Source: an uncultured virus (IMG/VR IMGVR_UViG_3300032321_001739) (Duplodnaviria; Heunggongvirae; Uroviricota; Caudoviricetes). From it: 64,000 nucleotides of DNA. A program made the translations under genes and the position numbers. This document shows, piece by piece, positions 10,239 through 63,557 of this stretch. Within the stretch, counting starts at the first letter, position 1. Each line of letters opens with the position of its first letter. The stretch is from the IMG/VR virus record IMGVR_UViG_3300032321_001739; one strand, written 5' to 3'. The notes under the pieces were generated by a model. It was not told the origin of the DNA. It saw only the letters and a program-made list of their open reading frames with translations, and did not search any database.

Positions 10239-12434
10239 ATGAATATAAATGATTATAAATTGTTTTTGGAACTTCAGAAGGATGAACCAATTAACGAAGA
10301 AGTTGGTTTAAGAAACCTCAAAAAGATTGCTAAGAGTTTAGATACAATTGACCAAGCACTTGTTGGAACTAAAAGATTAGAGATAAATCCATCCTCAAAA
10401 GCGAGTATGATTGATATATCAAATGTTGTAAGTGGAAATAGAAAGTGTGAGATTTATTTTCATAAAGACTTAGATGGTGTTACATCGGCTTTAGCTATGA
10501 AACAAATTCTTTGGAGTCAATACCAAATCGAATGTGTTGATTGTCACACAATTCAATATGGCGGATTAGAATTCGCGGTTCAACAACCAAAACCAGGAAA
10601 TCTAGCAGTTCTTGTAGATTTTGCACACTCTAAACCAATGTTTACAATTGCAACTGACCACCATCAAGAACAAGTTGGTGCCGAAGATACATCATCAACA
10701 TATTACAAACATTCAAGATCAAATGTTGAAACAATTTCTGGTGAGATTGCAAAACAAGAAATTTTTCCACAAAGAGATATTGAGTTTATTCAAACAATAG
10801 ATTCTGCGAACTTTTTGAAATATGATGTTAAACCAGAAGACGTTCAAAACTCAATCTTTAAATTAGATAAATCAATGTCTATCGAAAAGTTAAAATTCAC
10901 TATGGGTTTTGTTACTAATAGATTATTATTAGCTTATAAAAATAAAGCAATTACTTTAAAATCTAAAGACGGTAAAAGAGACCATATTAATAGAAATATT
11001 CTAGAGTGTTTGGTGTTAGATTGTTCTCCAAATTTATATTCAATGTATAATAACTTATTACATTATATGAATAATGCAAAAACAAGTGATAGATTGGGTA
11101 GATTAGCAACACCAGAAGAAATAACAAAAAACTTAGCAGATTATATCGAAACAATGAAAACATATTCTAATAAGGAATTTGATGATGATTATAAAATTCT
11201 AAGACAATATGGTGCTGGTTCTATGGTAAAACCAGGATCTTATGATAGATATGTTGTGTTTAAAAATAACCCAGAGGCAGAGTTTAACTGTATCACTTGG
11301 CCAATGGGGTTAATTCAAGTTTCTTGTAATCCATTTAAAGAAAAAGCTCTTAAAGATATTAACTTAGGTGAAATTGCTAAAGAAGTTCTTGCAATATTTG
11401 AACCAAAGTTTAAAAAATACTTTATCTCAATTAAAGCAATTAAAGAAGTTTACGAAACATCACAAGACTGGAAAAATCAACAAAAAATAAAAGGCGAAGA
11501 TTTCTCAGGAATTGGATTTAAATTTTCTGACCTTGCTGCTTTTTATATGGATTGTATTTACCAAAATGGATCAACTGGGGTCAAAAACATTATAGATAAG
11601 GTTTTAGAAATTGATTTTAGAGCAAATTCTGAAACATACGAGGATATTGATGTTATTATCAATTTTAATGGTCAAAAATTTCAATTTAAAGTAACTGAAG
11701 ATTTATTGATTTCAGAATTTGTAAAAACAGCAGTAGCTGATAGAGATATTAGTAAGTTCTCTGTTTATTCATACAAAGAAGGAGAGCCTTTTATTAGTGA
11801 ATTGACACAAAAAAGAATAGGTGGAGCTAAAGATAATATTTCAAACCTATTAAAGAGACAAAATGCTATAGTAACAAGTAGAGATAAGATTATGGTTTTC
11901 AAACCACTTAAAGATAATGCAATAGTAGATTCAATGAATAAAAACTATTCGGATTTATCATATCAAGAATTAAAATATCTTGATGGTTTAAAAATTCCAG
12001 TATGGGAACTAATCATTAGAAACTCGGGAGGTCACCCATCAATAACAAATATATCGGGTCTAAACTTTTTAGCTTATAATAAAGCAGCTATGAAAGTTGG
12101 TTATAACACAGATAAATATACTGATATTATGGCAATGATTGTGGATAAATTTATAAACTCATTAAAAGAGAAAATCAATTTAGCTAGAGAAGGAAAATTA
12201 GTAACATATGATACAAAAGGAGTGGAACTTCTCGGACAAGATATCAATGAGAACTTTAGTTATCAATTAGTTGACAAATTTACCGGACAACCAAAGTCTG
12301 TTACAAAAGAAGAGTTTCTTAAAGCAGGTTCTGAAACAGGAATGAGAAAGTCAAAGAAAAGCTCAATTATTATTGATAACACTAATAAGAAATTGATTGC
12401 AAAGTTTGAGAATTTTAATAATTCAAAACTGTAA
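10239..12434 (+). CDS. DHH-family phosphoesterase with DHHA1-like C-terminal part
   Basis: H-x-DLDG, VDF, TDHH and a late GGHP motif. Confidence 0.75.
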   Translation: MNINDYKLFLELQKDEPINEEVGLRNLKKIAKSLDTIDQALVGTKRLEINPSSKASMIDISNVVSGNRKCEIYFHKDLDGVTSALAMKQILWSQYQIECVDCHTIQYGGLEFAVQQPKPGNLAVLVDFAHSKPMFTIATDHHQEQVGAEDTSSTYYKHSRSNVETISGEIAKQEIFPQRDIEFIQTIDSANFLKYDVKPEDVQNSIFKLDKSMSIEKLKFTMGFVTNRLLLAYKNKAITLKSKDGKRDHINRNILECLVLDCSPNLYSMYNNLLHYMNNAKTSDRLGRLATPEEITKNLADYIETMKTYSNKEFDDDYKILRQYGAGSMVKPGSYDRYVVFKNNPEAEFNCITWPMGLIQVSCNPFKEKALKDINLGEIAKEVLAIFEPKFKKYFISIKAIKEVYETSQDWKNQQKIKGEDFSGIGFKFSDLAAFYMDCIYQNGSTGVKNIIDKVLEIDFRANSETYEDIDVIINFNGQKFQFKVTEDLLISEFVKTAVADRDISKFSVYSYKEGEPFISELTQKRIGGAKDNISNLLKRQNAIVTSRDKIMVFKPLKDNAIVDSMNKNYSDLSYQELKYLDGLKIPVWELIIRNSGGHPSITNISGLNFLAYNKAAMKVGYNTDKYTDIMAMIVDKFINSLKEKINLAREGKLVTYDTKGVELLGQDINENFSYQLVDKFTGQPKSVTKEEFLKAGSETGMRKSKKSSIIIDNTNKKLIAKFENFNNSKL

Positions 12435-12807
12435 TTTCAATTTCTTCTTTTAGTTTTGAATCATTTAATATAACATCTATTTTATTATCTCTCATTATCG
12501 ATTTATCATATCTTAATGTGATTGTATCAGATGGTGAAAAAAGATCTAAATACACCTCAATTCCATTGATTGATCCCATGTGTCTTAGCAATTCTTCACT
12601 CATCAATGATTCTAAACGAGCAAATTTAAAAGAATCATTTGCTTCTAATATATTATAAATAGACATTGGAACTATCATAAAATTTTGACCTGTTTTATTT
12701 CTTTGCATAATAATTTCCTTAATCAATTTATTAGATTTTAACTTAGCCAATTCAAAACTAGTCTCTGCATAACCCAAACTTTCATCTTTATTTAAATCAA
12801 TTGTCAT
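12415..12807 (-). CDS. Major-capsid (gp23) C-terminal-like fragment with RxxK[LI]xx[LI] tag
   Basis: GQNFMIV...YNILE...GSINGIEVYLDLF..DTITLRY resembles the gp23 C-terminal segment; followed by RDNKIDVIL. Confidence 0.5.
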   Translation of the reverse strand: MTIDLNKDESLGYAETSFELAKLKSNKLIKEIIMQRNKTGQNFMIVPMSIYNILEANDSFKFARLESLMSEELLRHMGSINGIEVYLDLFSPSDTITLRYDKSIMRDNKIDVILNDSKLKEEIEITVLNY

Positions 12808-13462
12808 TTAATATAGAATTTATTTTATCTTCTCTTAATTTTTGAGTATTAACTACTCTTATTTTATAAACTTCAAAGTCACAATCGTAAATTGGACTCT
12901 TAATAGAATGTTCGTTTGATGAAAATCCTTTAGTAATTGAATAATCCATATTTTGTAAAGACCAGACCATGCTCTGAATAGGTCGGTCAACTAAATAAAA
13001 ATGACAATCATCAAGATTATCTTCAATTAATGGTGAATAATATGCAGAGACTTCTCTGTTATACGCCATAATTTTAAATCTACGAGTAAAGTAATTGGGT
13101 AAATAACTATGACCATCATCTTCTGGTTCCACCAAATGACTATCAAGTTGTAAATTCAAATTAGAATTAGTTGAATAAAAGATTATTTTTGGATCAATTT
13201 TTAAACGATCCATTAAATCATGAATATCACTAAACGAGTTTCGATGAACTATAATCTCTTTAGATTTATCAAACATATTTTGAATAGAATAATTATAAAT
13301 TTCTATCATCAATTTTCTAAACAAAGAAGCTGAAAATGAAGAGTGTTTAAATTTCTCAACAACCTTTTTATCAGTGGAAGTGATTACATCACCAGAGTAA
13401 ATAAAATCAATACTTTGTAGAAAATCTTCTAATGTTTTCTTATGTTTGTGAAACTCATTCAT
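12797..13462 (-). CDS. Hypothetical protein with C-terminal tag
   Basis: Ends LREDKINSILNDN. Confidence 0.65.
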   Translation of the reverse strand: MNEFHKHKKTLEDFLQSIDFIYSGDVITSTDKKVVEKFKHSSFSASLFRKLMIEIYNYSIQNMFDKSKEIIVHRNSFSDIHDLMDRLKIDPKIIFYSTNSNLNLQLDSHLVEPEDDGHSYLPNYFTRRFKIMAYNREVSAYYSPLIEDNLDDCHFYLVDRPIQSMVWSLQNMDYSITKGFSSNEHSIKSPIYDCDFEVYKIRVVNTQKLREDKINSILNDN

Positions 13463-13507
13463 TTCTATTTTTATCTTTTTATTTGATAAAGTTTTATATA
13501 TAGTCTT

Positions 13508-25045: not shown

Positions 25046-25240
25046 TTATTTAATGATATTATTAATCTTTTCAATCCTATTTTCAGAAATCCAATCATAA
25101 TACTTTCCTACTTCTATTACTTCACCAAATCCATCTTCAAATTTAACCTCAATCATTTTACCGATTAAACGATATGATTTGATAGTTGGTTTGTGACTCC
25201 ACCTACTTTGTATAAATTCATTGAGTGAATCCAATTCCAT
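25046..25240 (-). CDS. Small protein with C-terminal tag
   Basis: Ends NRIEKINNIIK. Confidence 0.6.
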   Translation of the reverse strand: MELDSLNEFIQSRWSHKPTIKSYRLIGKMIEVKFEDGFGEVIEVGKYYDWISENRIEKINNIIK

Positions 25241-25577
25241 TATCTCATTATTTTATTTAATTTGACATCTCTATCTCTTCTTAGTATCTCATTATCAAAA
25301 GGTATCCAATTCTCATCAAAGTTATACTTATAAATTTTATCATCATCTTGCCAAATCATATAAGAAGAAAATTTAACTTGATTACCAAGATAATCTATAC
25401 CTGTAAATGCTTCTTTGTGAAGACTTTTTCCAAATCCGTCTCTTTTAAGTTCGATTTCTGATATTATATCTAATAGTTGATTAAAATCTATATCAATTTC
25501 TAAAATCTCTTCTCCGGTGTCCCATATATAATCATCGGATTTTATAAATTTAACTTTTATTATTTTTTCTATTTCCA

Positions 25578-25578
<1 letters not shown>
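25240..25578 (-). CDS. Hypothetical protein with C-terminal tag
   Basis: Ends RDVKLNKIMR. Confidence 0.65.
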
Positions 25579-26879: not shown

Positions 26880-27386
26880 TTAATTTGTCGAGTCATCTAA
26901 TAATTGATCTAAATTGTTATCACGAATAATTCCAGATTCCTTCATAACTTTATCCCAAATATCTGTGAAGTTTTCTTTATTAATCTCCATAACTCTTTTA
27001 CTAACTATATCAATTAATTCATTAAACATACCAATGTCTTCGTAGTTAGACCGTTTTTGATAAGATAAATTAATACTAAATCCTTCGTCTTTAATTACAT
27101 GAATATCTAAATAATTATCATCATTATAAAGAGTATTTTTAGAAGCTCTTTTTTTTATACTTGTAATATCAGGAGTTGAAATATTGAATGATTCCGATGA
27201 GAAATTAATATTCACATTATCGTTATAGTCAATTAATTTTAAGATTAAATTTTTAGTTTTTTCAGAAACATCACTATCATAAGGAACATAATCCACTCTT
27301 TCGCGAATTGGTGCGTCCATTTTTTGTAAAGAATTTACCTCAGTAAAAATAAGTTTTGCAATTTTTTTAAGTTTTTTCTTTTTCAT
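26880..27386 (-). CDS. Hypothetical protein with C-terminal tag
   Basis: Ends IIRDNNLDQLLDDSTN. Likely start MKKKK at 27386. Confidence 0.6.
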   Translation of the reverse strand: MKKKKLKKIAKLIFTEVNSLQKMDAPIRERVDYVPYDSDVSEKTKNLILKLIDYNDNVNINFSSESFNISTPDITSIKKRASKNTLYNDDNYLDIHVIKDEGFSINLSYQKRSNYEDIGMFNELIDIVSKRVMEINKENFTDIWDKVMKESGIIRDNNLDQLLDDSTN

Positions 27387-27457
27387 ACAAATAATTCTAT
27401 GTTTTATAAAACTATTTGTTTTAAGAAAATTGGATAACACTTTTAATATATACTTTT

Positions 27458-43799: not shown

Positions 43800-43821
43800 A
43801 ATTTAGCAAATATAAGGAAAA

Positions 43822-44073
43822 TTATAATAACTGACTTAATTTTAACTCTCTAATAATTGGAGTTAAAAGAAGTCTCTGATTATCTGGAAGTCCAACCAAA
43901 CAACTTTGTAGTAAAACCGTGAAGTGAGAAACTTCAACTTGGTCTTCAGATTCATATTTAGATTCCAGTTCTCTTTCAATTGTTCTAAGATTTGCTGCTA
44001 AACTATACATCTGTTTATCAATTGCGGTTTTTTTAATACTCTTAATTGTTTCTATCACTAATTTAGATTTCAT
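43822..44073 (-). CDS. UVR (UvrB/C, ClpC M-domain-like) protein with C-terminal tag
   Basis: KKTAIDKQMYSLAANLRTIEREL; ends IIRELKLSQLL. Confidence 0.6.
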   Translation of the reverse strand: MKSKLVIETIKSIKKTAIDKQMYSLAANLRTIERELESKYESEDQVEVSHFTVLLQSCLVGLPDNQRLLLTPIIRELKLSQLL

Positions 44074-45080: not shown

Positions 45081-45401
45081 TATCTTATCTAATTTTAATT
45101 CTCTAATTTTTTGGATATCTAATTTTAAGGTCTCAATTGATGAATACTGAAATTTTTCTCCACCATCATACGACCAAAGTTTTTGCCCATAATGAGCATC
45201 ACTTAATGAGTTTTGTATAACTTTAACCCAGTCTAAAGGTTTAACTAAAATCACTTGTTGATTTTCATTATAAATAAGTTGAAAAGCATAAACGCCTTCT
45301 TTGACATATTTGCGTATTTCAGATGAAATAACAAAACCAAATAGAAGATTATATCTCACTATGTGTTTATTTAACACATCATTTACAAAATCTTCAATCA
45401 T
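45072..45401 (-). CDS. Hypothetical protein with C-terminal tag
   Basis: Ends IRELKLDKILA. Confidence 0.65.
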   Translation of the reverse strand: MIEDFVNDVLNKHIVRYNLLFGFVISSEIRKYVKEGVYAFQLIYNENQQVILVKPLDWVKVIQNSLSDAHYGQKLWSYDGGEKFQYSSIETLKLDIQKIRELKLDKILA

Positions 45402-45679
45402 ATTCCTAATTCTTTTAACTTCTTATTTCTTTCTAACTTAACTTTTCTTTCAATATAATCACAAACTCCAGAACCAAAATGAGATATTGTTCCTAATTGT
45501 CCAGGCTTATTTGGCTTACTGTGTCTAAGAAAATCAACCCATTCATTCCAAATCAAAAAAGTCATTTCTTCTCCAACATAATAATCTTTAGATGTTGTGC
45601 CATTATTCAAAAACTCATCTATTTTAGTTATAACAACAACGTCACCTGGTCTTAATGATTTTAATTCTTCTAATGTCAT
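45398..45679 (-). CDS. KOW/SH3-like small protein with C-terminal tag
   Basis: LRPGDVVVI; ends RNKKLKELGI. Confidence 0.65.
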   Translation of the reverse strand: MTLEELKSLRPGDVVVITKIDEFLNNGTTSKDYYVGEEMTFLIWNEWVDFLRHSKPNKPGQLGTISHFGSGVCDYIERKVKLERNKKLKELGI

Positions 45680-45927
45680 ATTCCAATCTCACTTAATATC
45701 TTTTCTCTCCACACTTCTAAAGTAACAAAGTTCTTTGTTGGAAACCACTCTAATTCACCACATCCCTCTAAGTTTAGAAAGTTATTATTCCAATCGACTA
45801 TTCCATCAATGTTAAATATAAGTTCTCCTTCATAAACTTTACCATATTCTAACGGATCTTCTAATTTAAGAGTGGGAGCTCCGCCTAACTTATTTGTAAA
45901 ATTGGTATCTATACAAACTACTTTCAT
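45676..45927 (-). CDS. SH3-like small protein with C-terminal tag
   Basis: KVVCI...LEYGKVYE...WFPTKNF; ends REKILSEIGI. Confidence 0.65.
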   Translation of the reverse strand: MKVVCIDTNFTNKLGGAPTLKLEDPLEYGKVYEGELIFNIDGIVDWNNNFLNLEGCGELEWFPTKNFVTLEVWREKILSEIGI

Positions 45928-46463
45928 ATTCCTAAATCATCTAATTTACTATCTCTTAAAAACTCTTTTATAAGCAAATTCAGTTCATACTTTCCATCTA
46001 TACAATCTCTTTCTAAAATCCTAATAGGTCTTAATCTCATCGTATAAGTTTTCCTAACATTTATATTAAGATGGTTTAATTCCATAATAGGATCAGTTCC
46101 GGATGTGCGTTGAATACTTTTATCTTTTGATAAGATATGATAAGTCATTAAACGAATCGATTGCATCTTATTTGTATTAGTAACTAAATTCGACTTAAAG
46201 TAATCTACTTTATCAAAAGTAATCTCAACTAAGAAATTAAATTTATCTGTAACCTCTGATAAATTTGATGGATTAGTTTTATAAAACTGACGATCTTCAA
46301 CATGAGAATAGGAAATAACTCCATCACTTTCTGAAACTGTGATATCATCAATTGAAAAAAAATCATCAGATGTTAATTCCTCAAAATTCTTTTCATTTGG
46401 ATACCATCTTAAAAAGACCAAACTAATTTTCTGAGTATTGTTTATGTTGTAATCAATTTTCAT
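45924..46463 (-). CDS. Hypothetical protein with C-terminal tag
   Basis: Ends LRDSKLDDLGI. Confidence 0.65.
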   Translation of the reverse strand: MKIDYNINNTQKISLVFLRWYPNEKNFEELTSDDFFSIDDITVSESDGVISYSHVEDRQFYKTNPSNLSEVTDKFNFLVEITFDKVDYFKSNLVTNTNKMQSIRLMTYHILSKDKSIQRTSGTDPIMELNHLNINVRKTYTMRLRPIRILERDCIDGKYELNLLIKEFLRDSKLDDLGI

Positions 46464-46581
46464 TAAATAACTTTTTAATTTTGTTCATCCTCACATACTG
46501 TCTAATACCAAAATGGTATTTAGACACACCTGATGCCGTCAATAACTTTTCATAGAAATATTTTAATTCGTTATTTAACAT
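46453..46581 (-). CDS. 42-aa peptide resembling a portal-protein helix, with C-terminal tag (not in ORF track)
   Basis: MLNNELKYFYEKLLTASGVSKYHFGIRQYVRMNKIKKLFNEN*; fills the gap between two tagged genes and overlaps both. Confidence 0.6.
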   Translation of the reverse strand: MLNNELKYFYEKLLTASGVSKYHFGIRQYVRMNKIKKLFNEN

Positions 46582-46913
46582 ACCCAATATTGATATTCAT
46601 TTTCGTCTCTTAAGACTTCATCTATTTTTAACTCTCTCTCATAAGCAATCATCTTACCTAAAGTTTCTCTCAAGAAACTCAAAGTCTTTTTCTTTCTTAA
46701 TTCACTTCTATAATTAGTAAGTTCAAGTTCTTCAATACTCGTCTTAAACATTTCAAGATTAGCCTTCATATCTTGATAGTAGTTATTAGATTTCTGCCAA
46801 TAAATAATCTCACCATCTTTTAAGATGATATAAATATCTTTCTCTTTGAAAGGACATTGAAGTTCCTCAATGATTTGATATTGCTCGCCTCTGTTATTTA
46901 TTATAAACCTCAT
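46575..46913 (-). CDS. Hypothetical protein with near-terminal tag
   Basis: ERELKIDEVL; first gene after TATATTTGTA (46919-46928, minus). Confidence 0.6.
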   Translation of the reverse strand: MRFIINNRGEQYQIIEELQCPFKEKDIYIILKDGEIIYWQKSNNYYQDMKANLEMFKTSIEELELTNYRSELRKKKTLSFLRETLGKMIAYERELKIDEVLRDENEYQYWVC

Positions 46914-46974
46914 ATTACTACAAATATAATAATTTTTTTAATATATACAATGTGAAACACTTAAAAACATAATT

Positions 46975-48721: not shown

Positions 48722-50527
48722 ATGTCAAACTGGACTTTAATTAAACGAATTTGGGAATTTGCAAAGCCGTTTAGAAAAACAATTGGAATTATTTTCATTT
48801 GTATATTTATAACTTCTGTTATAGAGGCTCTAAACACTTATTTCTTGAGTAATATCTTTGATATTATTCAAAAACACTCTAACGATCCATCTTATCTGAA
48901 TACTTCTTTATTCTTTGTAGGGCTTGCAGCACTTGGTGTTTTTGTTAGAATTTTAGTTAGTAGATTTCAAGGTAATCTTGAAATTAGAAAATTAGATATT
49001 AAGGCATCTAACCATCTTAACCATCATTCAATTGCAAAGTATTTTAACTTTTCCAATGGTCAGCATATAAATGAACACTCTGGTGTGAAACAAAACATTA
49101 TCACTTCTGGATTTCAATCGGTTCAGGGTCAAATCTCGATGTTTGTTTATCATCTTTTTCCAGCGATTGCTAACTTTATTGTTTCAATTGTGATGCTTTT
49201 TGTAATTAGTTCTTATATTGGATTTTCCTATTTAGCAATCTCATTTGTTTTCTTGTGGTCTGTTTATAAATTTAACAAGTATCTACAACCTAAGTTAAGA
49301 GAAGTAACGGATGCTAGAAACCAAACGGCTAGAACAATTTCCGAACTTTACCGTTTTGTTTTCCTTATCAAAAACGAAGTTGGTGAAAAGAAATCATTAC
49401 AAGACTTAGATGATGTTCAAGATGCTCACCAAGATGCTTTTCAAAGAACTTGGATTCCCGGAAACAACTTACTAACACTTATTAGAATTGGAACAGCCGG
49501 ATTTAGATACTTGACTATTCTATTTGGAGTTTGGTTATTATTTAAGGGATATATTACAGCTGGTGCTATCTTTCTAATCTTCACTTGGTCTCAGAATTTT
49601 ATCATGTCACTTTGGATGATAACAGATATGCAAAAACAATTTATCACCGATAAAATTAACATTGAAAAGTATTTTGAACTACTTGAAATAAAACCAGATG
49701 TTGAAGAAATTGAAAATCCGATTTCTAATAATATCACAGGTGATATCGAATTCAGTGATGTCGAGTTTAGTTATCCACAAAGAAAGAAAAATCATAAAGA
49801 CAAAGATGAAGAAGAACTTCAACCTGAAATGGTTCTTAAAGGAATTTCTTTTAAAATTAAAGAAGGTGAGAAAGTAGCATTTGTTGGTGAGAGTGGTTCT
49901 GGTAAATCAACTATTGCAAATCTTGTCAGAAGAGCATTCGATCCACAAAGTGGGAAAATTACTATCAACAATAATAATCTTAAAGATTTAGAACTCAAAT
50001 CTTTCTTAAAGAAAATTGGAAGTGTTGACCAAGAAGTAAATCTATTCGATAAAAGTATTCGTGAAAATATTTCTTATGGAACAGAAAGTTTACTAACTGA
50101 CGAGGAGTTAAACAAGATAGCAAAGATGGCTCGTATTGATACCTTTTATAAAAAACTAGAACATGGTTGGGACACTATAGTTGGTGAGCGTGGATCTAAA
50201 GTATCAGGCGGCGAGAAACAACGAATTGGAATTGCAAGAGCTTTGGCTAAGAATCCACAAATTCTTATTTTTGACGAAGCTACTTCTGCTTTAGACACAG
50301 TAAGTGAAAGAGTTGTTCAGAAATCAATAGATGCTGTAAGTAAAGGAAAAACATCTATTATAATTGCACATAGGCTTTCAACGGTCAAAAACTGTGATAA
50401 GATTTTTGTTCTTAAACAAGGTCAGTTGTTAGCAGAAGGAACACATGATTATCTATTAGAAAATTGTGAATATTATAAAGAATTAGTAAAACATCAATTA
50501 ACAAACAAAATAACAGAAAATGAATAA
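48722..50527 (+). CDS. ABC exporter, fused permease/ATPase (MsbA-like)
   Basis: About 6 TM segments; GESGSGKS, VSGGEKQR, ILIFDEATSALD and IAHRLST. Confidence 0.92.
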   Translation: MSNWTLIKRIWEFAKPFRKTIGIIFICIFITSVIEALNTYFLSNIFDIIQKHSNDPSYLNTSLFFVGLAALGVFVRILVSRFQGNLEIRKLDIKASNHLNHHSIAKYFNFSNGQHINEHSGVKQNIITSGFQSVQGQISMFVYHLFPAIANFIVSIVMLFVISSYIGFSYLAISFVFLWSVYKFNKYLQPKLREVTDARNQTARTISELYRFVFLIKNEVGEKKSLQDLDDVQDAHQDAFQRTWIPGNNLLTLIRIGTAGFRYLTILFGVWLLFKGYITAGAIFLIFTWSQNFIMSLWMITDMQKQFITDKINIEKYFELLEIKPDVEEIENPISNNITGDIEFSDVEFSYPQRKKNHKDKDEEELQPEMVLKGISFKIKEGEKVAFVGESGSGKSTIANLVRRAFDPQSGKITINNNNLKDLELKSFLKKIGSVDQEVNLFDKSIRENISYGTESLLTDEELNKIAKMARIDTFYKKLEHGWDTIVGERGSKVSGGEKQRIGIARALAKNPQILIFDEATSALDTVSERVVQKSIDAVSKGKTSIIIAHRLSTVKNCDKIFVLKQGQLLAEGTHDYLLENCEYYKELVKHQLTNKITENE

Positions 50528-50948
50528 AGCTTATATTGTAATGAAAAAAGGTTATGAATATGATGATAGTATTTATAACGAAACCGAAGGAGGAACTCCA
50601 AAAATTGTTTGTTTTTCAAAAAAAGATGCTGAAGAAAAGGTAAAAGAACTTAATATTAAATCTTATAAAGAAAGTTCAATAACTGATTTTGCATATGAAT
50701 ATGAGAACTGTGTAAATGTTGAATGGAATGAGTTTGAGAAATTCAATAACTCACTTATTAAAAAGTATGGTGAAGTTAAGAAAAATTACGCTTGGGACTC
50801 TACTGAAAATAGATTACATCAATCAGCAAATGAAGATGAAGTAAACGAATACTGTAAAATGGTTACAATTTCTTTTTATGAAGTAGTCGAAGTAGATGTA
50901 GACACATCAAGTTATCGAGAAGAAAAAATCAATCAGATTTTAGATTAA
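50520..50948 (+). CDS. Hypothetical protein with C-terminal tag
   Basis: Ends YREEKINQILD. Confidence 0.65.
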   Translation: MNKAYIVMKKGYEYDDSIYNETEGGTPKIVCFSKKDAEEKVKELNIKSYKESSITDFAYEYENCVNVEWNEFEKFNNSLIKKYGEVKKNYAWDSTENRLHQSANEDEVNEYCKMVTISFYEVVEVDVDTSSYREEKINQILD

Positions 50949-54220: not shown

Positions 54221-54419
54221 AGAACTTCTTGAATATAATATTTGTTTAATCTCTGAACAACTAACAATTGAGCAACTAATATTTGCACGTAGAAATAGAG
54301 ATTGGAATAGATTTGATAAACTTGATGATATTAGAAAACTAATTGTTAGATTAGAAGAACTTGAGTATTTTTCAGATGATATCGATCCTAATTACAAACC
54401 AAAAGGTTATTTTAAATGA
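54213..54419 (+). CDS. Small hypothetical protein
   Basis: 68-aa ORF overlapping both neighbours. Confidence 0.5.
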   Translation: MNKELLEYNICLISEQLTIEQLIFARRNRDWNRFDKLDDIRKLIVRLEELEYFSDDIDPNYKPKGYFK

Positions 54420-54631
54420 TGGATAAAGAAACTGTCGAAAATTATTTCAATTTAATGAAATCAAAAGGCGCAATTGCGGATTACTGGATTTTTGATTCTT
54501 ATCGTGAAGAAGTCGATTATATCAAAATATACTATTTACATAAATCAGGAAAAAAGTCTTCTTATAGATTTCTAACAGAAATAGTCTTACAGGAATTAAG
54601 AGACGATAAGTTAAGAAAGTTATTTGATTAA
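54416..54631 (+). CDS. Small protein with C-terminal tag
   Basis: Ends LRDDKLRKLFD. Confidence 0.65.
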   Translation: MMDKETVENYFNLMKSKGAIADYWIFDSYREEVDYIKIYYLHKSGKKSSYRFLTEIVLQELRDDKLRKLFD

Positions 54632-58412: not shown

Positions 58413-58633
58413 TTCTCTCTTTTTTTATACAAACTGTTTTCCCATTCGATATAATCTCTTCTGTCTTTCAACACTGTTGTAATAACAAGTGAAAAAGAAA
58501 AAAATCCAAATATGAATAATAATATTATTTCCATATGTTATATATTCATGACTTTGAAAAAAAGACCCTATTTACAGTTTAACAAATTGTTATTAAATTT
58601 TGAATTATCATAAATTATTATTATATTTGCTAA

Positions 58634-59456: not shown

Positions 59457-59504
59457 GTTTGCCAAATAATTTTTTTTCATTATATTTGTAGAAATAAATC
59501 CACT

Positions 59505-59990: not shown

Positions 59991-60299
59991 ATGGGATCTT
60001 TAATTAATGAAAATTACAATCCTCTATTAGAAACAGTAATAGATATCTTTAAATCTAAATGTAGACCTGGATACACTCCATTATATTTACCTGGTAAAAC
60101 TTTTGTTGAACACTTTAGTTTACAAGATGGAGATATTGATCACTTCTTTAATTTAATGTGTTATGAGTTAAAAGTCCTTTCAATAAATCCAGGGTCTGAT
60201 GAAATGTCATATCACTGGGAACAAAATGACTTTGGATTGTTAGAACCCTATCTAACACAATTAAAAAGAGATAATAATCTAACCGATTTAGGAATATGA
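59991..60299 (+). CDS. Hypothetical protein with C-terminal tag
   Basis: Ends KRDNNLTDLGI. Confidence 0.65.
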   Translation: MGSLINENYNPLLETVIDIFKSKCRPGYTPLYLPGKTFVEHFSLQDGDIDHFFNLMCYELKVLSINPGSDEMSYHWEQNDFGLLEPYLTQLKRDNNLTDLGI

Positions 60300-60517
60300 A
60301 TGTAGGAGATATTGTTAGACTTAAAAGTAATCATCATCTTACTGAATTCATTAAAGGTGATTGCTTTATAACACAAGTAGTAAAGTATAATAATAAACAT
60401 AGAAAAACTCGTTATCATATTAAAAATAACGAAGATTGCATGACTTGGGTTCACTTAGAAGAATTGGATTTAGTTAGTGATTTAAGAAATCAAAGATTAG
60501 AAAAATTAGGAATATGA
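60296..60517 (+). CDS. KOW/SH3-like small protein with C-terminal tag
   Basis: MNVGDIVRLK; ends LRNQRLEKLGI. Confidence 0.65.
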   Translation: MNVGDIVRLKSNHHLTEFIKGDCFITQVVKYNNKHRKTRYHIKNNEDCMTWVHLEELDLVSDLRNQRLEKLGI

Positions 60518-60545: not shown

Positions 60546-60555
60546 TATATTTGTA
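60546..60555 (+). promoter_or_regulatory. Bacteroidota housekeeping-sigma -7 element TAnnTTTG (representative; about 13 copies)
   Basis: TATATTTG(T/C) at 15987(-), 18137(-), 19796(-), 25033(-), ~43807(-), 46919(-), 51452, 53322, 54849, 58622, 59481, 60546; TATCTTTG at 52165. Confidence 0.75.
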
Positions 60556-60557
60556 AT

Positions 60558-61160
60558 ATGAAAATACACAAATTAGAAGATGGTGATATCATTAAGATAT
60601 TACCAATGATTGATAAGAATAATAAGATCTCTTGGATAAAACAGTATGATTGTGTTGGTCTTAATACTAAGACATTCATCAGTGATACTAAAGGATATTT
60701 GAGAAGAATATCACTTATGCAATCCAAATCAAGTATTAACTTACCGATCACAACAAGATATGCTATGAATATTTATATTGATGGTGAGATTCGTGTTTTA
60801 AATGTTGGTAGAAAGCTATTTCAAATAATCACAGATAATCCAAAGCTATGGGATATAAAAGGTAATCATCAAATCTTTATATCTATGAAGGAAGTTAGTG
60901 CTGGTGGTGGTCAAGTTTTCCCATCATTTGATAAGTCTTATGTTTCTGAAAAAAGTTGGACACCACCAGTTAGTGATATTAATTCTGAAGTAGAGTGGTT
61001 ATCTTATATCAAATCAAATCAACCAGACTTTGATAATCATCTCGAGAAGAGTAACATATTTAATCATAAACAATTACTTATTAATCATTTAGGAAAAGAT
61101 ATGTTAGGTGAGTTGATAGCAGATGATAGACAGAAAAAATTAGAAGGATTAGGAGTATGA
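60558..61160 (+). CDS. Degenerate gp32-like ssDNA-binding fold with C-terminal tag
   Basis: IKILP, TRYAMNI, GEIRVLNVGRKLFQII and FPSFDKS parallel gp32 motifs; ends DRQKKLEGLGV. Confidence 0.55.
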   Translation: MKIHKLEDGDIIKILPMIDKNNKISWIKQYDCVGLNTKTFISDTKGYLRRISLMQSKSSINLPITTRYAMNIYIDGEIRVLNVGRKLFQIITDNPKLWDIKGNHQIFISMKEVSAGGGQVFPSFDKSYVSEKSWTPPVSDINSEVEWLSYIKSNQPDFDNHLEKSNIFNHKQLLINHLGKDMLGELIADDRQKKLEGLGV

Positions 61161-61321
61161 AAGAAGATTGGATAGAGTTATATAACGGAGACTGGATGGA
61201 ACAAATGGCTAAAAAAACTTATGATGAAGCGTGGATAGATACCTTAAAAGACTTTAGGAAGATAATAAGAAAAGATAAAATAATGACAATATATGATTTA
61301 CATTTACAAACCAAGAAGTGA
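61157..61321 (+). CDS. 54-aa peptide with near-terminal tag (not in ORF track)
   Basis: MKEDWIELYNGDWMEQMAKKTYDEAWIDTLKDFRKIIRKDKIMTIYDLHLQTKK*; ATGA-coupled. Confidence 0.55.
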   Translation: MKEDWIELYNGDWMEQMAKKTYDEAWIDTLKDFRKIIRKDKIMTIYDLHLQTKK

Positions 61322-61514
61322 TTGGCATAAAAGATCTGATTTAACTGAAGGAAAGACTTATGAGTGTGAGTGGAATGGTGAAATGGTTTATTCATCTACC
61401 GGTGTTTATTTTAGATTGATTGGTGATTTCGGACATGAAATTGAAGTGCATGAAAGTCAATTTGTTCAATTAGATAAGGTTAGACAACAAAAACTAAATG
61501 AAATAGGTATATGA
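61293..61514 (+). CDS. SH3-like small protein with C-terminal tag
   Basis: LTEGKTYE...IGDFG...SQF; ends RQQKLNEIGI. Confidence 0.65.
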   Translation: MIYIYKPRSDWHKRSDLTEGKTYECEWNGEMVYSSTGVYFRLIGDFGHEIEVHESQFVQLDKVRQQKLNEIGI

Positions 61515-61720
61515 TTGTTAAATTAAATTCAGATAACAGAATTGGTAAATTCTATGCTTTATCTTTAAATAAAGAATATGTAGCTGAAGTGATAAATAGA
61601 AAAATGGGCGATTGGTATAAAATCAAATGTGATGATGGTCATATTAGAGAGTTTTCAGAACACCACTTTATTTCAATTGAGAAAATGCGTGATAAGAAGT
61701 TAAATGAATTAGGAATATGA
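61511..61720 (+). CDS. SH3-like small protein with C-terminal tag
   Basis: LSLNKEY...YKIKCDDG...HHF; ends RDKKLNELGI. Confidence 0.65.
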   Translation: MIVKLNSDNRIGKFYALSLNKEYVAEVINRKMGDWYKIKCDDGHIREFSEHHFISIEKMRDKKLNELGI

Positions 61721-61920
61721 TAGTTAGATGTAAATTAGACAATGATTCAGTTGGTAAATTAAAAGGTTTAACAATTGATAAGTCTTATATGGTAACTGGA
61801 ATTGATAATATTGGATATAGAATTATTGACGATGTGTTGAACAACTATTGGTATACAAAAGAATTATTTTATCCAATTGAAGATGAAAGAGAAACGAAAT
61901 TAAATGAATTGGGAATATGA
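61717..61920 (+). CDS. SH3-like small protein with C-terminal tag
   Basis: LTIDKSY...YRIIDD...ELF; ends RETKLNELGI. Confidence 0.65.
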   Translation: MIVRCKLDNDSVGKLKGLTIDKSYMVTGIDNIGYRIIDDVLNNYWYTKELFYPIEDERETKLNELGI

Positions 61921-62378
61921 AAGAATTATATAAACAACTTACTGATACAATTCAGGCTCTTCCAGGTATTGAAGTTAGCGGTAGTAATTTATCAAATTCA
62001 TTTGATAAGATTAAATCTAATTGGGGTGGTCATTGTATTTTCTTTTACTCTGATGAAAAAGATGCTGAAGGACTTTTCTTTCTTACACGTTCTATAGATA
62101 CTAGGTATTGGGAGTTTGGACATTTATGGAGAATTGAAATAACTTGTGGTGACCAAATACATCCAAATGGTGACAGACCAATTACTTATAATATTTACAG
62201 ACCTTTCATTGGAGAAGAAACTGAAGAAGAAATTGATAAAGAGATAAACTTACTCATTGAAAATATGCACTATCATTTCCACCACGATAATTTTATGTCT
62301 GGCTTTAATATGGATAGAACTAAGTATGACCTGAAAGAGTGGAAAAGAGAAATGAAGTTAAATGATTTAGGGTTATGA
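61917..62378 (+). CDS. Hypothetical protein with C-terminal tag
   Basis: Ends REMKLNDLGL. Confidence 0.65.
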   Translation: MKELYKQLTDTIQALPGIEVSGSNLSNSFDKIKSNWGGHCIFFYSDEKDAEGLFFLTRSIDTRYWEFGHLWRIEITCGDQIHPNGDRPITYNIYRPFIGEETEEEIDKEINLLIENMHYHFHHDNFMSGFNMDRTKYDLKEWKREMKLNDLGL

Positions 62379-62707
62379 AAATAATTTGTGATGATACTAC
62401 CTCTAAAGAGATAGTAGATATATTCTTTCACTTTGATGAAAATAGAGAAAGGTATATCAGAATTGATTGGATTCATCTAACCAAAGGAACTTCTTCTAGA
62501 AGAGAAAAACCGGGTGATCCTCTGAAGCAAGTGATTGTTGATTGTATTCAAGTAAGAGGTAAATCACATTTAGGTTATGATGGAGACTCTACAAATGGCA
62601 CTCGTTATGTATATGAAGGTGATGCACTTTTCAAAGAGTTAAATAATTGGATGATTAATCATCAAACAATTAAAAGAGATATTAAGTTAAAAGAATTGGG
62701 ACTATGA
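62375..62707 (+). CDS. Hypothetical protein with C-terminal tag
   Basis: Ends RDIKLKELGL. Confidence 0.65.
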   Translation: MKIICDDTTSKEIVDIFFHFDENRERYIRIDWIHLTKGTSSRREKPGDPLKQVIVDCIQVRGKSHLGYDGDSTNGTRYVYEGDALFKELNNWMINHQTIKRDIKLKELGL

Positions 62708-62997
62708 AATTGAAATATAAAAGAGGAGATTCCTGTCATATAAAAAAGGCTAGTAAGTTTGTAGAAGGTTCAATAGTCAAGTTGGATATGCCATATCATG
62801 GAAGTTCATGCTATAAAGAAGGAGATATCAGATACTTTGTTACTGAAAAGAAAACTATAACAATAAGCGCAAAAGAACTCTTATTAGGTAAGTATGATAA
62901 AAATGATATAACACAAACTTATTCAGAGAGCGATCTTATATCGTGGGAAAGAGAATGGAAAATAAATCAATTATATGAGAAAGATACACTTATCTAA
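62704..62997 (+). CDS. KOW-like protein with near-terminal tag
   Basis: KYKRGD; REWKINQL. Confidence 0.6.
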   Translation: MKLKYKRGDSCHIKKASKFVEGSIVKLDMPYHGSSCYKEGDIRYFVTEKKTITISAKELLLGKYDKNDITQTYSESDLISWEREWKINQLYEKDTLI

Positions 62998-63217
62998 GTT
63001 TCCAGAAAGACCACATGTGCTTAAAGCCAGTTTAATGTTTGTTGAAGATAATAAGATATGTGATGGATGTGATGAAAGATCAAAATGTGCTTCTATACGA
63101 ACATTGGGTGATGGAGTTTCAATACTTTGTCAAGATTGCATTGAAGGTATTTTAGAGAGTTTAGATCCATCAGCAGTAAGAGATATTAAATTAAATAAAT
63201 TATTAAATGAATTATAA
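62975..63217 (+). CDS. C4 zinc-finger protein with C-terminal tag
   Basis: CDGC...LCQDC; ends VRDIKLNKLLNEL. Confidence 0.65.
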   Translation: MRKIHLSKFPERPHVLKASLMFVEDNKICDGCDERSKCASIRTLGDGVSILCQDCIEGILESLDPSAVRDIKLNKLLNEL

Positions 63218-63557
63218 AGAAATTGTTAGTAAGACAAAAGACAAATTTCAATCAATGTCTTTTATACCCGGAGATACGTTCTCTGAAATGTTATCTTTTT
63301 GGATTGTTGTTATTTCTAATCAGAATGGAATGATTAAAACACTAGAAGGAAATTCCGGTGGGCTAAAATTGGTTACTTACCAATCACCAGAAGAATTTAA
63401 ATCTAAGTGTCAATATAAACACAGTGATGGGTATTGGATTGAATTTATGTCAAACAACACACAAAAGAAATCCGACTTTATTGAATACTATTTTGAACAA
63501 GAGAAAATGAAAGTTGATGAAATTAGAGATTTTAAGTTAAATGACTTAGGAATATAA
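63207..63557 (+). CDS. Hypothetical protein with C-terminal tag
   Basis: Ends IRDFKLNDLGI. Confidence 0.65.
   Translation: MNYKEIVSKTKDKFQSMSFIPGDTFSEMLSFWIVVISNQNGMIKTLEGNSGGLKLVTYQSPEEFKSKCQYKHSDGYWIEFMSNNTQKKSDFIEYYFEQEKMKVDEIRDFKLNDLGI

What the first reader, a model, noticed from the sequence alone, without database searches (positions are those of the whole stretch)
12415..63557. About 31 unrelated small proteins share a C-terminal R-x-x-K-[LI]-x-x-[LI]-(G-I) tag: candidate modular bait + docking-helix (decoy/adaptor) system
Seen: the motif ends, or nearly ends, the ORFs at 12415, 12797, 25046, 25240, 26880, 31663, 39050 (two copies), 42281, 42623, 43012, 43822, 45072, 45398, 45676, 45924, 46453, 46575, 50520, 54416, 59991, 60296, 60558, 61157, 61293, 61511, 61717, 61917, 62375, 62704, 62975 and 63207. 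Examples are RDSKLDDLGI, RNKKLKELGI, RDKKLNELGI, RELKLDKIL and REEKINQIL. The N-terminal parts are unrelated (SH3-like, zinc fingers, a membrane protein, fragments of core phage proteins). I saw the tag on no recognisable enzyme and on no N-tagged late protein. Three tag-rich operons start right after host-sigma TATATTTG promoters (~43807-, 46919-, 60546+), so they are probably early. Inference: the spacing gives an amphipathic helix that docks many variable baits onto one hub, as F-box/SOCS-box adaptors do. The hub could be a protease/unfoldase (clpP is in this window), a membrane or a phage compartment. One use would be to trap or destroy host defence sensors. I am not aware of this being described.
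Basis: partly seen in the sequence, partly recalled or inferred. Interest (0 to 1): 0.93.

Follow-up and report, generated by a model that had tools for sequence, protein, structure and literature searches.

The report
Shared tail tag on megaphage mini-proteins
A giant bacteriophage of Bacteroidetes ends roughly one in five of its small, otherwise unrelated proteins with the same ten-residue helical tail, which looks like an address label read by one still unidentified partner and has not been described in print as far as I could find.

Summary
In the window, 26 of 117 ORFs carry R-x-x-[KRN]-[LI]-x-x-[LI] within 6 residues of the C-terminus (0.2 expected from shuffles). The other 5 listed ORFs carry a variant or near-terminal copy. 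Selection acts on the protein: synonymous codons vary and nothing is conserved after the stop. The window belongs to a Mahaphage-type huge phage of Bacteroidetes. The tag ends 7-25% of ORFs in relatives, sits on about 184 unrelated bodies, and 147 of 150 tagged proteins scanned have no Pfam family. It is common in IMG/VR and absent from 596 Gb of cellular genomes. More distant huge phages carry clade-specific variants (R-K-x-[KR]-I-x-x-L-L; R-T-K-L-I-D-K-M), which points to a co-evolving reader. My best guess, with weak support, is the phage's own ClpC-like unfoldase with ClpP. An ABC exporter and a DNA-level origin are rejected. A few tagged mini-proteins copy pieces of phage PolB, capsid protein and the ClpC M-domain. 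Six literature searches found no description. Unchecked notes of this scan report similar tags in other giant-phage genomes.

The parts
12415..12807 (-). 130-aa ORF; motif RDNKIDVIL lies 17 residues before the end (near-terminal copy, not among the 26 strict ones)
12797..13462 (-). 221-aa tagged ORF, tail REDKINSILNDN; ortholog in G001 keeps the identical tail
25046..25240 (-). 64-aa tagged ORF, tail RIEKINNIIK
25240..25578 (-). 112-aa tagged ORF, tail RDVKLNKIMR
26880..27440 (-). 186-aa tagged ORF, tail RDNNLDQLLDDSTN
31663..32286 (+). 207-aa tagged ORF with two TM-like segments, tail RNNNLDKLGIN; followed by a convergent gene, so the tag does not serve a downstream start
39050..39724 (-). 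224-aa ORF with an internal copy (RDINLDEIL at residue 77) and a terminal tag REVKLEEIL
42281..42631 (+). 116-aa tagged ORF, tail RELRLDKLLD
42623..43012 (-). 129-aa tagged ORF, tail RRKNLDGLV; 60% identical homolog in G003 keeps the tag
43012..43158 (-). 48-aa mini-protein: a copy of DNA polymerase B motif A (IDFASLYPNTQ) followed by the tag RKMKIKKIFQ
43822..44073 (-). 83-aa tagged ORF, tail RELKLSQLL; the N-terminal part weakly resembles the UVR/M-domain of the phage ClpC-like unfoldase
45072..45401 (-). 109-aa tagged ORF, tail RELKLDKILA
45398..45679 (-). 93-aa tagged ORF, tail RNKKLKELGI, ATGA overlap with the next gene
45676..45927 (-). 83-aa SH3-like family member with the variant tail REKILSEIGI
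45924..46463 (-). 179-aa tagged ORF, tail RDSKLDDLGI
46453..46587 (-). 44-aa tagged ORF, tail RMNKIKKLFNEN
46575..46913 (-). 112-aa ORF, motif RELKIDEVL followed by 11 residues; first gene behind the TATATTTG box at 46921-46928
50520..50948 (+). 142-aa tagged ORF, tail REEKINQILD; in 30 homologs R is invariant; AF2 puts a terminal helix at 129-141 after strand 120-127
54416..54631 (+). 71-aa tagged ORF, tail RDDKLRKLFD
59991..60299 (+). 102-aa tagged ORF, tail RDNNLTDLGI
60296..60517 (+). 73-aa SH3-like family member, tail RNQRLEKLGI
60558..61160 (+). 200-aa tagged ORF, tail RQKKLEGLGV; first gene behind the TATATTTG box at 60546-60553
61157..61321 (+). 54-aa ORF, weak copy RKDKIMTI 9 residues before the end
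61293..61514 (+). 73-aa SH3-like family member, tail RQQKLNEIGI
61511..61720 (+). 69-aa SH3-like family member, tail RDKKLNELGI; AF2 pLDDT 88, small beta-barrel plus terminal helix 56-66
61717..61920 (+). 67-aa SH3-like family member, tail RETKLNELGI
61917..62378 (+). 153-aa tagged ORF, tail REMKLNDLGL
62375..62707 (+). 110-aa tagged ORF, tail RDIKLKELGL
62704..62997 (+). 97-aa ORF, motif REWKINQL 7 residues before the end
62975..63217 (+). 80-aa tagged ORF, tail RDIKLNKLLNEL; 75% identical homolog in G003 keeps the tag
63207..63557 (+). 116-aa tagged ORF, tail RDFKLNDLGI, stop TAA, next gene 18 nt downstream
43807..43814 (-). TATATTTG box (Bacteroidetes -7-like) 7 nt before the ATG of the nucleotidyltransferase gene that heads an operon with two tagged ORFs
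46921..46928 (-). TATATTTG box 7 nt before the ATG of a six-gene operon in which every product is tagged
60546..60553 (+). TATATTTG box 4 nt before the ATG of the 60558-63557 array (12 ORFs, all with the motif)

Best explanation
The motif is a protein-level C-terminal address tag. It is an amphipathic helix of about 12 residues: [K/I/L]-x-x-[I/L/V]-R-[D/E]-x-K-[L/I]-[N/K]-x-[L/I], closed either by G-[I/L/V] or by one more hydrophobic residue. Huge T4-like phages of Bacteroidetes attach it directly to the last structural element of hundreds of small (225 residues or fewer), fast-evolving, mostly orphan proteins, which are probably early. The conserved Arg, Lys and two or three aliphatic residues would lie on one helix face and dock into one reader protein that co-evolves with the tag. 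I think the most likely reader is the phage's own Clp machine: a ClpC-like double-ring unfoldase that has lost its regulatory N-domain, working with phage ClpP. On that reading the tag tethers each body, and whatever the body binds, to the unfoldase, or marks the body for timed removal. Shown: the tag exists, is selected as protein, is modular, is phage-only, and varies by clade. Inferred: that it is a docking helix with one reader (about 0.75) and that the genes are early.
For: Enrichment: 26 of 117 window ORFs against 0.2 expected. With the same pattern, widened only to admit Met at the two hydrophobic positions, 38 of 572 in G001, 81 of 344 in G003 and 47 of 187 in G004. With a looser pattern, 160 of 1014 in LR756502.
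Protein-level selection: Arg and Lys codons at the fixed positions match genome usage (p = 0.08 and 0.99), all Leu and Ile codon families occur, and there is no conservation after the stop.
Orthologs at 50-78% identity keep the tag.
Modularity: 226 tagged proteins fall into 184 BLAST clusters of N-terminal parts.
Pfam: 147 of 150 tagged proteins scanned have no family.
Structure: AF2 puts a terminal helix on two unrelated folds.
Phage-only: in IMG/VR, 87 of 94 pattern matches end an ORF open for at least 40 codons. In 596 Gb of cellular genomes only 3 of 40 do, and none of the 40 has D/E/N/Q at position 2.
Clade-specific variants: in LR756504, R...I..L lies in the last 14 residues of 110 ORFs against 2.5 expected (consensus R-K-x-[KIR]-I-[END]-[NED]-L-[LI]). 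LR756501 has about 15-20 tails of the type R-T-[KE]-L-[IM]-D-[KE]-M.
Cytoplasmic side: 32 of 344 tagged small proteins have a TM-like segment, mostly an N-terminal anchor followed by Lys/Arg.
Clp link:
- G001 encodes a 710-aa ClpC-like protein with a VGF loop, a UVR M-domain and no Clp_N domain.
- It is 80-83% identical in three tag-bearing relatives and ranks 8th of 183 reciprocal best hits (median 54.6%).
- Its architecture changes in step with the tag variant in the three clades.
- Four tagged mini-proteins resemble its M-domain, the best at E 6.7e-7.
- ClpP lies beside a tag-rich operon in the window.
Against: - No binding was tested.
- Clp unfoldase homologs occur in all five huge phages examined, including LR756501, which has few tags. 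Presence therefore does not discriminate.
- LR756501 has no ClpP match. LR756502 has many tags but only 39-44% ClpP paralogs of the window type.
- ClpC's high conservation is shared with other core enzymes; 7 proteins rank higher.
- The match between tag variant and unfoldase architecture rests on three clades only.
- The M-domain-like mini-proteins are weak hits apart from one, and they could equally be baits aimed at ClpC rather than evidence that ClpC reads the tag.
- The helix follows the last strand with no flexible linker, unlike known tethering tails.
- The last residues vary, and up to 6 residues may follow the motif, unlike pore-engaged C-terminal degrons.
- A mild excess of A-ending Leu/Ile codons and a 30% against 8% excess of ATGA overlaps show some mRNA-level constraint as well.
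- A host-encoded reader is not excluded.
Confidence: 0.33

Rival explanations
1. The reader is a host protein, for example host ClpX/ClpC, the beta clamp, RNA polymerase, DnaK or the ribosome. The tag then directs early phage proteins to a host hub, and the clade-specific variants follow different Bacteroidetes hosts.
For: The tag-rich operons carry host-type -7 boxes, so the products appear when mostly host proteins are present. No phage protein could be singled out: 97 G001 proteins are shared by all the huge phages compared. The tag variants differ between phages whose hosts may differ.
Against: No cellular genome in 596 Gb holds a canonical tag, so the phage does not copy a host motif in this form. 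The variants track phage clades that also differ in their own unfoldase. No host genome is known for any of these phages, so nothing could be tested.
Confidence: 0.2
2. The tag is a packaging signal that loads small proteins into the very large T4-like capsid (or another virion part) for co-injection. This would be analogous to T4 internal proteins or encapsulin cargo peptides.
For: The phage has a gp23-type capsid protein, a gp20-type portal and a T4-type terminase. All tagged proteins under the strict patterns are 225 residues or fewer in the window, G001, G003 and G004. A hydrophobic C-terminal peptide ending in L-G-I recalls encapsulin targeting peptides (recalled, not tested).
Against: The tagged operons sit behind host-type promoter boxes, away from the structural genes. 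About 9% of tagged proteins are membrane-anchored. Up to 25% of all ORFs would have to be cargo. No protease-site pattern accompanies the tag.
Confidence: 0.12
3. There is no external reader. The helix is a generic structural or self-association element, such as a capping helix or an oligomerisation helix, inherited by a huge, rapidly diverging family of paralogs.
For: About 40-45 tagged proteins do form one diverged SH3-like family in tandem arrays. In that family AF2 predicts the helix with pLDDT of about 85-88. Tandem arrays suggest duplication.
Against: The same tail ends 184 BLAST-unrelated bodies, among them alpha/beta proteins, membrane proteins and a PolB fragment. The invariant residues are Arg and Lys, which are surface residues. 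In the 142-aa protein the helix has pLDDT 52-60. All tags of a clade shift together, which is hard to explain without a shared partner.
Confidence: 0.1
4. The conservation is at the nucleic-acid level: a gene-junction element for translational coupling, recombination of gene cassettes, or RNA processing. The peptide would be a by-product.
For: Of the tagged ORFs, 30% end in an ATGA overlap with the next gene, against 8% of untagged small ORFs. Leu and Ile at positions 5 and 8 prefer A-ending codons.
Against: Arg is written with 6 codons and Leu with 6, including first-base changes, and Lys AAA/AAG usage matches the background exactly. The x positions are free and nothing is conserved beyond the stop. 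26% of tagged ORFs have no same-strand gene within 60 nt downstream. The backwards-read control of the DNA pattern gives 0 hits in all 11 records searched.
Confidence: 0.03

Closest known systems
Adaptor tethering tails and C-terminal degrons of Clp proteases (SspB's ClpX-binding tail, ssrA tag, MecA-ClpC); features recalled from the literature, not tested here
   Same: A short peptide at the extreme C-terminus of otherwise unrelated proteins that would be read by one AAA+ machine. The phage encodes such a machine: a ClpC-like unfoldase with a VGF loop, plus ClpP.
   Different: There is no sequence likeness. The tag is a helix joined directly to the fold with no long linker. The last residues vary, and up to 6 residues may follow. 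It sits on 7-25% of the ORFs of a genome rather than on a handful of proteins. The phage unfoldase lacks the N-domain that known adaptors bind.
Substrate-receptor libraries with a shared docking module (F-box, SOCS-box, poxviral ankyrin-PRANC proteins); recalled
   Same: Many variable binding bodies carry one constant C-terminal docking element. They lie in fast-evolving gene arrays of a large virus.
   Different: Those modules are folded domains of 40-50 residues that dock to ubiquitin-ligase scaffolds. Here the element has about 12 residues, there is no ubiquitin system, and no Pfam family matches. The resemblance is in logic only.
T4 capsid-targeting sequence of internal proteins (IPI-III, Alt); recalled
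   Same: A short amphipathic peptide shared by unrelated small proteins of a T4-like phage acts as an address label.
   Different: The T4 signal is N-terminal, is cleaved by the prohead protease, and sits on late proteins. This tag is C-terminal, shows no cleavage pattern, and sits in operons with host-type promoter boxes.
Sliding-clamp-binding C-terminal tails (bacterial QL[SD]LF-type motifs, T4/RB69 gp45 ligands) and PIP boxes; recalled
   Same: Many different proteins carry one hydrophobic C-terminal peptide that plugs into one hub. In some families Gln replaces Lys before the first aliphatic residue.
   Different: The spacing is different, there are no aromatic residues, and an invariant Arg lies four residues upstream. 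Hundreds of orphan proteins carry the tag, rather than replication factors.
Encapsulin cargo-loading peptides; recalled
   Same: A C-terminal hydrophobic peptide, often with a Gly, is shared by unrelated cargo and read by an HK97-fold shell. The phage capsid protein has that fold class.
   Different: Encapsulin cargo are enzymes. Here no tagged protein is a recognisable enzyme and some are membrane-anchored. No binding was tested.

Membership tests
SspB-type ClpX-binding (XB) adaptor tails | Substrate-binding domain joined by a long flexible linker to the C-terminal tethering peptide (recalled definition) | tested here: not met
   In both AF2 models the tag helix starts 1-2 residues after the last strand: strand 120-127 then helix 129-141, and strand 53-55 then helix 56-66.
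SspB-type ClpX-binding (XB) adaptor tails | The peptide binds the N-terminal domain of the unfoldase | not testable with these tools
The phage ClpC-like protein has no Clp_N or zinc-binding N-domain.
ssrA-like C-terminal degrons | Recognition of the last 2-3 non-polar residues and the free carboxylate (recalled) | tested here: not met
   The residues after the motif's last Leu/Ile vary (GI 45, GL 14, LK 7, L 7, LD 6 and others, of 191), and up to 6 residues may follow. The invariant residues lie 3-10 positions from the end.
T4 capsid-targeting sequence | N-terminal position with prohead-protease cleavage after the signal (recalled) | tested here: not met
   The motif is C-terminal in 26 of 34 window occurrences and is terminal by construction in the relatives.
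ClpP-docking [LIV]-G-[FL] loops of Clp ATPases | Tripeptide aliphatic-Gly-aromatic/Leu that enters the ClpP surface pocket (recalled) | tested here: inconclusive
   Roughly 40% of the 191 pooled tails have Gly after the last Leu/Ile (GI 45, GL 14, GV 4, plus forms such as GIK 6). The rest have a hydrophobic residue there instead. The LR756504 variant has almost no Gly form: 2 GL tails of 160. Binding was not testable.
Bacterial beta-clamp / T4 gp45 binding motifs | Q-L-[SD]-L-F-type pentapeptide or an aromatic-rich C-terminal tail (recalled) | tested here: not met
   The logo shows K (155 of 191) at the position before the first aliphatic residue, two residues between the aliphatics, and no aromatic preference. 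Gln appears at that position in one family only.
Any curated protein family (Pfam, PHROGs) or solved structure holding the tag | Significant profile match covering the tail | tested here: not met
   Pfam: no family on the tails of window proteins. 147 of 150 tagged proteins of the relatives have no hit at 1e-3. PHROGs: 29 of 30 have no family. A profile of 103 tails against PDB sequences gave one chance-level hit, E = 1.
F-box / SOCS-box / PRANC receptor libraries | Folded docking domain of 40-50 residues homologous to those families | tested here: not met
   No Pfam match. The conserved stretch is about 12 residues long.

The most novel reading that the evidence does not exclude
The tagged mini-proteins form a phage-encoded library of adaptors for targeted protein destruction. 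Each variable body binds a different host protein (for example a defence sensor) or phage protein. Some bodies are decoy copies of conserved phage epitopes: PolB motif A, a capsid-protein segment, the ClpC M-domain. The common tail tethers the catch to the phage's deregulated, N-domain-less ClpC-ClpP protease. This would be a bacterial-virus counterpart of F-box/SOCS/PRANC systems, evolving as an arms-race gene array.
Probability: 0.15. Interest if true: 0.95.

Novelty: categorically new. Interest (0 to 1): 0.86.

Why it matters
Up to a quarter of the genes of some of the largest known phages are orphan mini-proteins, and this tag is the first handle on them. It says they are not a random collection but clients of one machine, and it gives a simple experimental bait, a 12-residue peptide, to find that machine. 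It would then be a natural toolkit of small binders against host proteins, defence systems probably among them. The clade-specific variants offer natural orthogonal tag-reader pairs. The tag also improves annotation: it marks real genes among very short ORFs in AT-rich megaphage genomes.

Tried and rejected
- Whole genome of the window: none is held. I worked with relatives instead.
- DNA-level origin of the motif: rejected on codon usage, free x positions and the lack of conservation past the stop.
- Translational-coupling role: tags also end genes with no downstream partner.
- ABC exporter 48722-50527 as reader (a type-1-secretion-like idea): absent from LR756502, LR745206 and G002, which all carry tags. 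Rejected.
- Window-type ClpP as universal reader: not conserved as an ortholog in LR756502 and absent from LR756501. Weakened.
- The 483-aa protein 35936-37387 as hub: it belongs to a multi-copy family in all five huge phages examined and is not specific.
- Host mimicry: no canonical tag in 596 Gb of cellular genomes.
- Profile of the tails against PDB sequences: nothing.
- PHROGs and Pfam on tagged proteins: almost nothing.
- Foldseek on the 142-aa model: nothing significant. On the 69-aa model: only weak SH3/KOW-like matches, best E = 0.07.
- BLAST of 373 tagged N-terminal parts against 453 large phage proteins: 1 query hit at 1e-3. A permissive phmmer run added only a few credible fragment matches among many chance rows.
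- My first labelling of LR756504 and LR756501 as tag-free, from the strict DNA pattern, was wrong. De novo motif counting found variant tags.
- Comparative genomics of 'shared by all' proteins left 97 candidates, too many to name a reader.

Full report
1. THE OBSERVATION

I called ORFs in all six frames and kept a greedy non-overlapping set of 117.

With the pattern R..[KRN][LI]..[LI], 26 of the 117 ORFs have it ending within 6 residues of the C-terminus, and 11 end strictly in [LI]-G-[ILV]. Only 8 further hits lie anywhere else in 20,048 residues. Shuffling each protein 2000 times gave a mean of 0.215 terminal hits (maximum 3) and 3.9 hits in all.

- 26 pass this test.
- 45676 carries a one-position variant (REKILSEIGI).
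- 12415, 46575, 61157 and 62704 carry the motif 7-17 residues before the end.

The distance from the last motif residue to the stop is exactly 2 residues in 18 of the 26.

2. PROTEIN OR DNA?

At the fixed positions the codons vary. In the window Arg is written AGA, AGG, CGT and CGA. Leu is written TTA, CTA and TTG, and Ile ATA, ATT and ATC. Lys is written AAA and AAG. The x positions are free, and nothing is conserved after the stop.

I pooled 191 distinct tags from the window and three relatives. Arg and Lys codon usage is the same as in the rest of the genes (p = 0.08 and 0.99). Leu and Ile use all codon families but prefer A-ending codons at positions 5 and 8 (p between 4e-7 and 1.5e-3 for three of the four tests).

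Tagged ORFs end in an ATGA overlap with the next gene in 58 of 192 cases, against 61 of 733 untagged small ORFs. However, 50 of the 192 have no same-strand gene within 60 nt downstream.

The motif is therefore selected as a peptide, with a minor mRNA-level constraint on top. It is not a gene-junction element.

3. WHAT THE WINDOW IS

The baseplate-hub gene 881-3166 is 56% and 53% identical to genes of the uncultured huge phages LR756502 (642 kb) and LR745206 (635 kb). It is more distantly related to genes of LR756501 (735 kb) and LR756504 (636 kb).

In passages of PMC7162821, the four largest curated genomes are given as 634, 636, 642 and 735 kb, placed in the 'Mahaphage' clade and predicted to replicate in Bacteroidetes.

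An IMG/VR contig of 436 kb (handle G001) is collinear with the window at 70-88% nucleotide identity. It has a gp23-type capsid protein, a gp20-type portal and a T4-type terminase. Relatives also encode T9SS sorting domains and TonB-dependent receptors, which are Bacteroidetes hallmarks.

4. HOW FAR THE TAG REACHES

A DNA pattern for the strict L-G-I form gave these counts:

| Record | Hits |
|---|---|
| LR756502 | 24 |
| LR745206 | 12 |
| G001 | 9 |
| G002 | 17 |
| G003 | 28 |
| G004 | 13 |
| G005 | 14 |

The backwards-read control gave 0 hits in every record.

At the protein level, with the pattern widened only to admit Met at the two hydrophobic positions:

| Sequence | Tagged ORFs |
|---|---|
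| Window | 26 of 117 |
| G001 | 38 of 572 |
| G003 | 81 of 344 |
| G004 | 47 of 187 |

All these tagged proteins are 225 residues or fewer, with a median near 92-110. With a looser pattern, 160 of 1014 ORFs of LR756502 are tagged. They are concentrated at the two ends of the record (19 in the first 20 kb, 48 in 600-640 kb), which is one region of a circular genome.

A scan of IMG/VR gave 94 matches in 90 stretches. Of these, 87 close an ORF open for at least 40 codons, 84 have D/E/N/Q at the unconstrained position 2, and there are 71 distinct tails on contigs of 5-483 kb. The same scan of 596 Gb of bacterial and archaeal genomes gave 40 matches. Only 3 of those close an ORF of that length, and none has D/E/N/Q at position 2. 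In this form the tag is a phage feature.

5. ANATOMY

The pooled logo extends the motif upstream:

| Position | Residues |
|---|---|
| -3 | K/I/L/T |
| -2 | S/E/Q/A |
| 0 | I/L/V |
| 1 | R |
| 2 | D/E |
| 4 | K (155 of 191) |
| 5 | L/I |
| 6 | N/K |
| 7 | E/K/Q |
| 8 | L/I |
| after 8 | G plus I/L/V (about 40%), or a hydrophobic residue plus a polar one |

On a helix, positions -3, 0, 1, 4, 5 and 8 share one face. A Gly followed by a hydrophobic residue is a classical helix C-cap. Both statements are my inference.

AF2 predicts a terminal helix in two unrelated bodies:
- In the 142-aa alpha/beta protein 50520-50948, the helix spans 129-141 with pLDDT 52-60, after strand 120-127.
- In the 69-aa protein 61511-61720, the helix spans 56-66 with pLDDT about 85-88, after a small beta-barrel.

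The barrel weakly resembles SH3/KOW/Tudor-like domains, with best Foldseek E = 0.07. The 142-aa model matches nothing significant.

6. THE BODIES

N-terminal parts of the window's tagged ORFs show no pairwise BLAST similarity better than E = 0.007. Over four sequences, 226 tagged proteins fall into 184 clusters, of which 154 are singletons.

One real family does exist: an SH3-like module of about 70 residues with some 40-45 members, at least 5 of them in the window. Its nearest ESM-Atlas clusters are virus-only and carry no Pfam family.

Family scans found little:
- Pfam finds nothing on 147 of 150 tagged proteins of the relatives.
- Pfam finds no enzyme among the window's tagged ORFs.
- PHROGs finds nothing on 29 of 30.

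Homologous pairs almost always agree in tag status. The 8 discordant pairs mostly carry variant tails, and orthologs at 50-78% identity keep the tag.

32 of 344 tagged small proteins have a TM-like segment. It is usually an N-terminal anchor followed by Lys/Arg, which puts the tail in the cytoplasm.

A few mini-proteins are copies of pieces of core phage proteins:
- Window 43012-43158 holds PolB motif A, IDFASLYPNTQ, against DFASLYPTTQ at residues 408-426 of the G001 and LR756502 polymerases.
- One LR756502 mini-protein matches residues 439-470 of the capsid protein.
- Four mini-proteins, window 43822-44073 among them, resemble the UVR/M-domain of the phage ClpC-like protein. The best is E 6.7e-7; the others are 0.004-0.02.

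They are few: 1 of 373 bodies by BLAST at 1e-3.

7. CLADE-SPECIFIC VARIANTS

The strict DNA pattern suggested that LR756504 and LR756501 lack the tag. That was wrong.

De novo counting of gapped triplets in the last 14 residues recovers the known motif in G003, LR756502 and G001. In LR756504 it finds R...I..L in 110 ORFs against 2.5 expected.

The LR756504 consensus is R-K-x-[KIR]-I-[END]-[NED]-L-[LI]. It sits on about 160 of 982 ORFs, again massed at the record ends. LR756501 has about 15-20 tails of the type R-T-[KE]-L-[IM]-D-[KE]-M-(L-N) at 216-278 kb.

A concerted shift of all tags within a clade is what a co-evolving reader predicts.

The ABC exporter next to a tagged gene is absent from three tag-bearing relatives and is rejected.

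The window-type ClpP has 72-75% orthologs in G002, LR745206 and G003. LR756502 has only 39-44% paralogs, and LR756501 has none.

G001 encodes a 710-aa ClpC-like unfoldase with these features:
- two AAA+ modules, a UVR-type M-domain and a VGF loop;
- no Clp_N domain, and instead a 47-residue acidic, low-complexity N-terminus;
- closest library proteins that are full-length ClpC of 810-860 residues.

It is 80-83% identical in LR756502, LR745206 and G002 but 45-49% in LR756504 and LR756501. It ranks 8th of 183 reciprocal best hits between G001 and LR756502, where the median identity is 54.6%.

Its architecture differs in the three tag clades:
- Window clade: acidic tail plus UVR M-domain.
- LR756504: no tail and a divergent M-domain.
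- LR756501: ClpA-like, with an N-domain and no M-domain.

The listed abstract of PMC12583610 says that ClpC rests in an inactive state held by M-domain contacts, that partner proteins activate ClpC by binding its N-terminal domain, and that this domain stabilises the resting state; the listing cuts off at that point. That an unfoldase without the N-domain could be constitutively open to clients is my inference.

All of this is circumstantial. RNA evidence for timing was also out of reach.

9. TIMING

TATATTTG occurs 17 times against 7.8 expected. Eleven or twelve copies lie 4-25 nt upstream of the ATG of small-gene operons, in the gene's orientation, and several have a TTTG about 20 nt further upstream.

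The general TAnnTTTG pattern is not enriched (110 against 106). That these are host sigma-A promoters, and that the genes are therefore early, is inference from the published Bacteroidetes -7 consensus (recalled).

10. NOVELTY

Six full-text searches gave no paper describing a shared C-terminal tag in huge or jumbo phages. PMC7162821 does not mention Clp in its main text. I read search listings, abstracts and passages only, and saw no supplements.

Earlier unchecked notes of this scan describe comparable tags in other giant-phage genomes. One is an 'RDxxIxxIL' tag on about one protein in ten, with tagged fragments of capsid, scaffold and protease. I partly re-tested that idea here and found a small number of such fragments.

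11. VERDICT

The reading as a docking helix for one co-evolving reader is well supported but not proven. I commit to the phage ClpC/ClpP machine as the most likely reader at about one chance in three.

Noticed in passing
window 15521-15991 (-); L104:3958-4416; L108:413-913: A second short recurring module. A DUF6576-like stretch (…LDKILEKGVDSLSEFDKYILSK) ends the window ORF (Pfam E 5.6e-4, below cut-off). It is clearer in two G001 proteins, once C-terminal (E 7.8e-10) and once N-terminal (E 1.3e-8).
   Followed up: partly
window 35936-37387 (+): A 483-aa protein with no Pfam family and a Cys-rich C-terminus belongs to a family with 5-16 copies in each of five huge phages.
   Followed up: partly
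window 15989-15996, 18139-18146, 19798-19805, 25035-25042, 43807-43814, 46921-46928 (-); 51452-51459, 53322-53329, 54849-54856, 58622-58629, 59481-59488, 60546-60553 (+): The consensus (T)AT-TATATTTG-TA lies 4-25 nt before start codons of small-gene operons. This implies leaderless or very short-leader mRNAs from Bacteroidetes-type promoters.
   Followed up: partly
L093:12047-14176 (-) in G001; L173-L178: A phage ClpC-like unfoldase that lacks the Clp_N domain, with an acidic 47-residue N-terminus, a UVR M-domain and a VGF loop. G001 also has three ClpP paralogs.
   Followed up: yes
LR756501 (W03), whole record: Another C-terminal motif (D...E..W, YG...W, P.G...W) ends 38-41 ORFs against about 2.5-4 expected. 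It is probably the end of a large paralog family.
   Followed up: no
L102:3524-5047 and L107:17542-18972 in G001: The family-B DNA polymerase appears split into two genes about 114 kb apart. The tagged window mini-protein 43012-43158 copies motif A of the first half.
   Followed up: partly
window 13508-35364: A dense set of auxiliary genes: FKBP isomerase, peptide deformylase, a class II tRNA-synthetase-like gene, formyltransferase, adenylosuccinate synthetase, RpiB, SAM decarboxylase, and TerC at 63575-64000.
   Followed up: no
window 46975-47511 (+): The untagged 178-aa protein upstream of ClpP ends …LENLLSEFGIEVDEMWGIPR. This is a tag-like L-x-x-L-x-x-F-G-I followed by 10 more residues.
   Followed up: no
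L125:11056-11550 in G004: A 165-aa protein holds two tandem copies of the SH3-like module and a single terminal tag (HRQNQLEKIL), which shows module duplication inside a gene.
   Followed up: no
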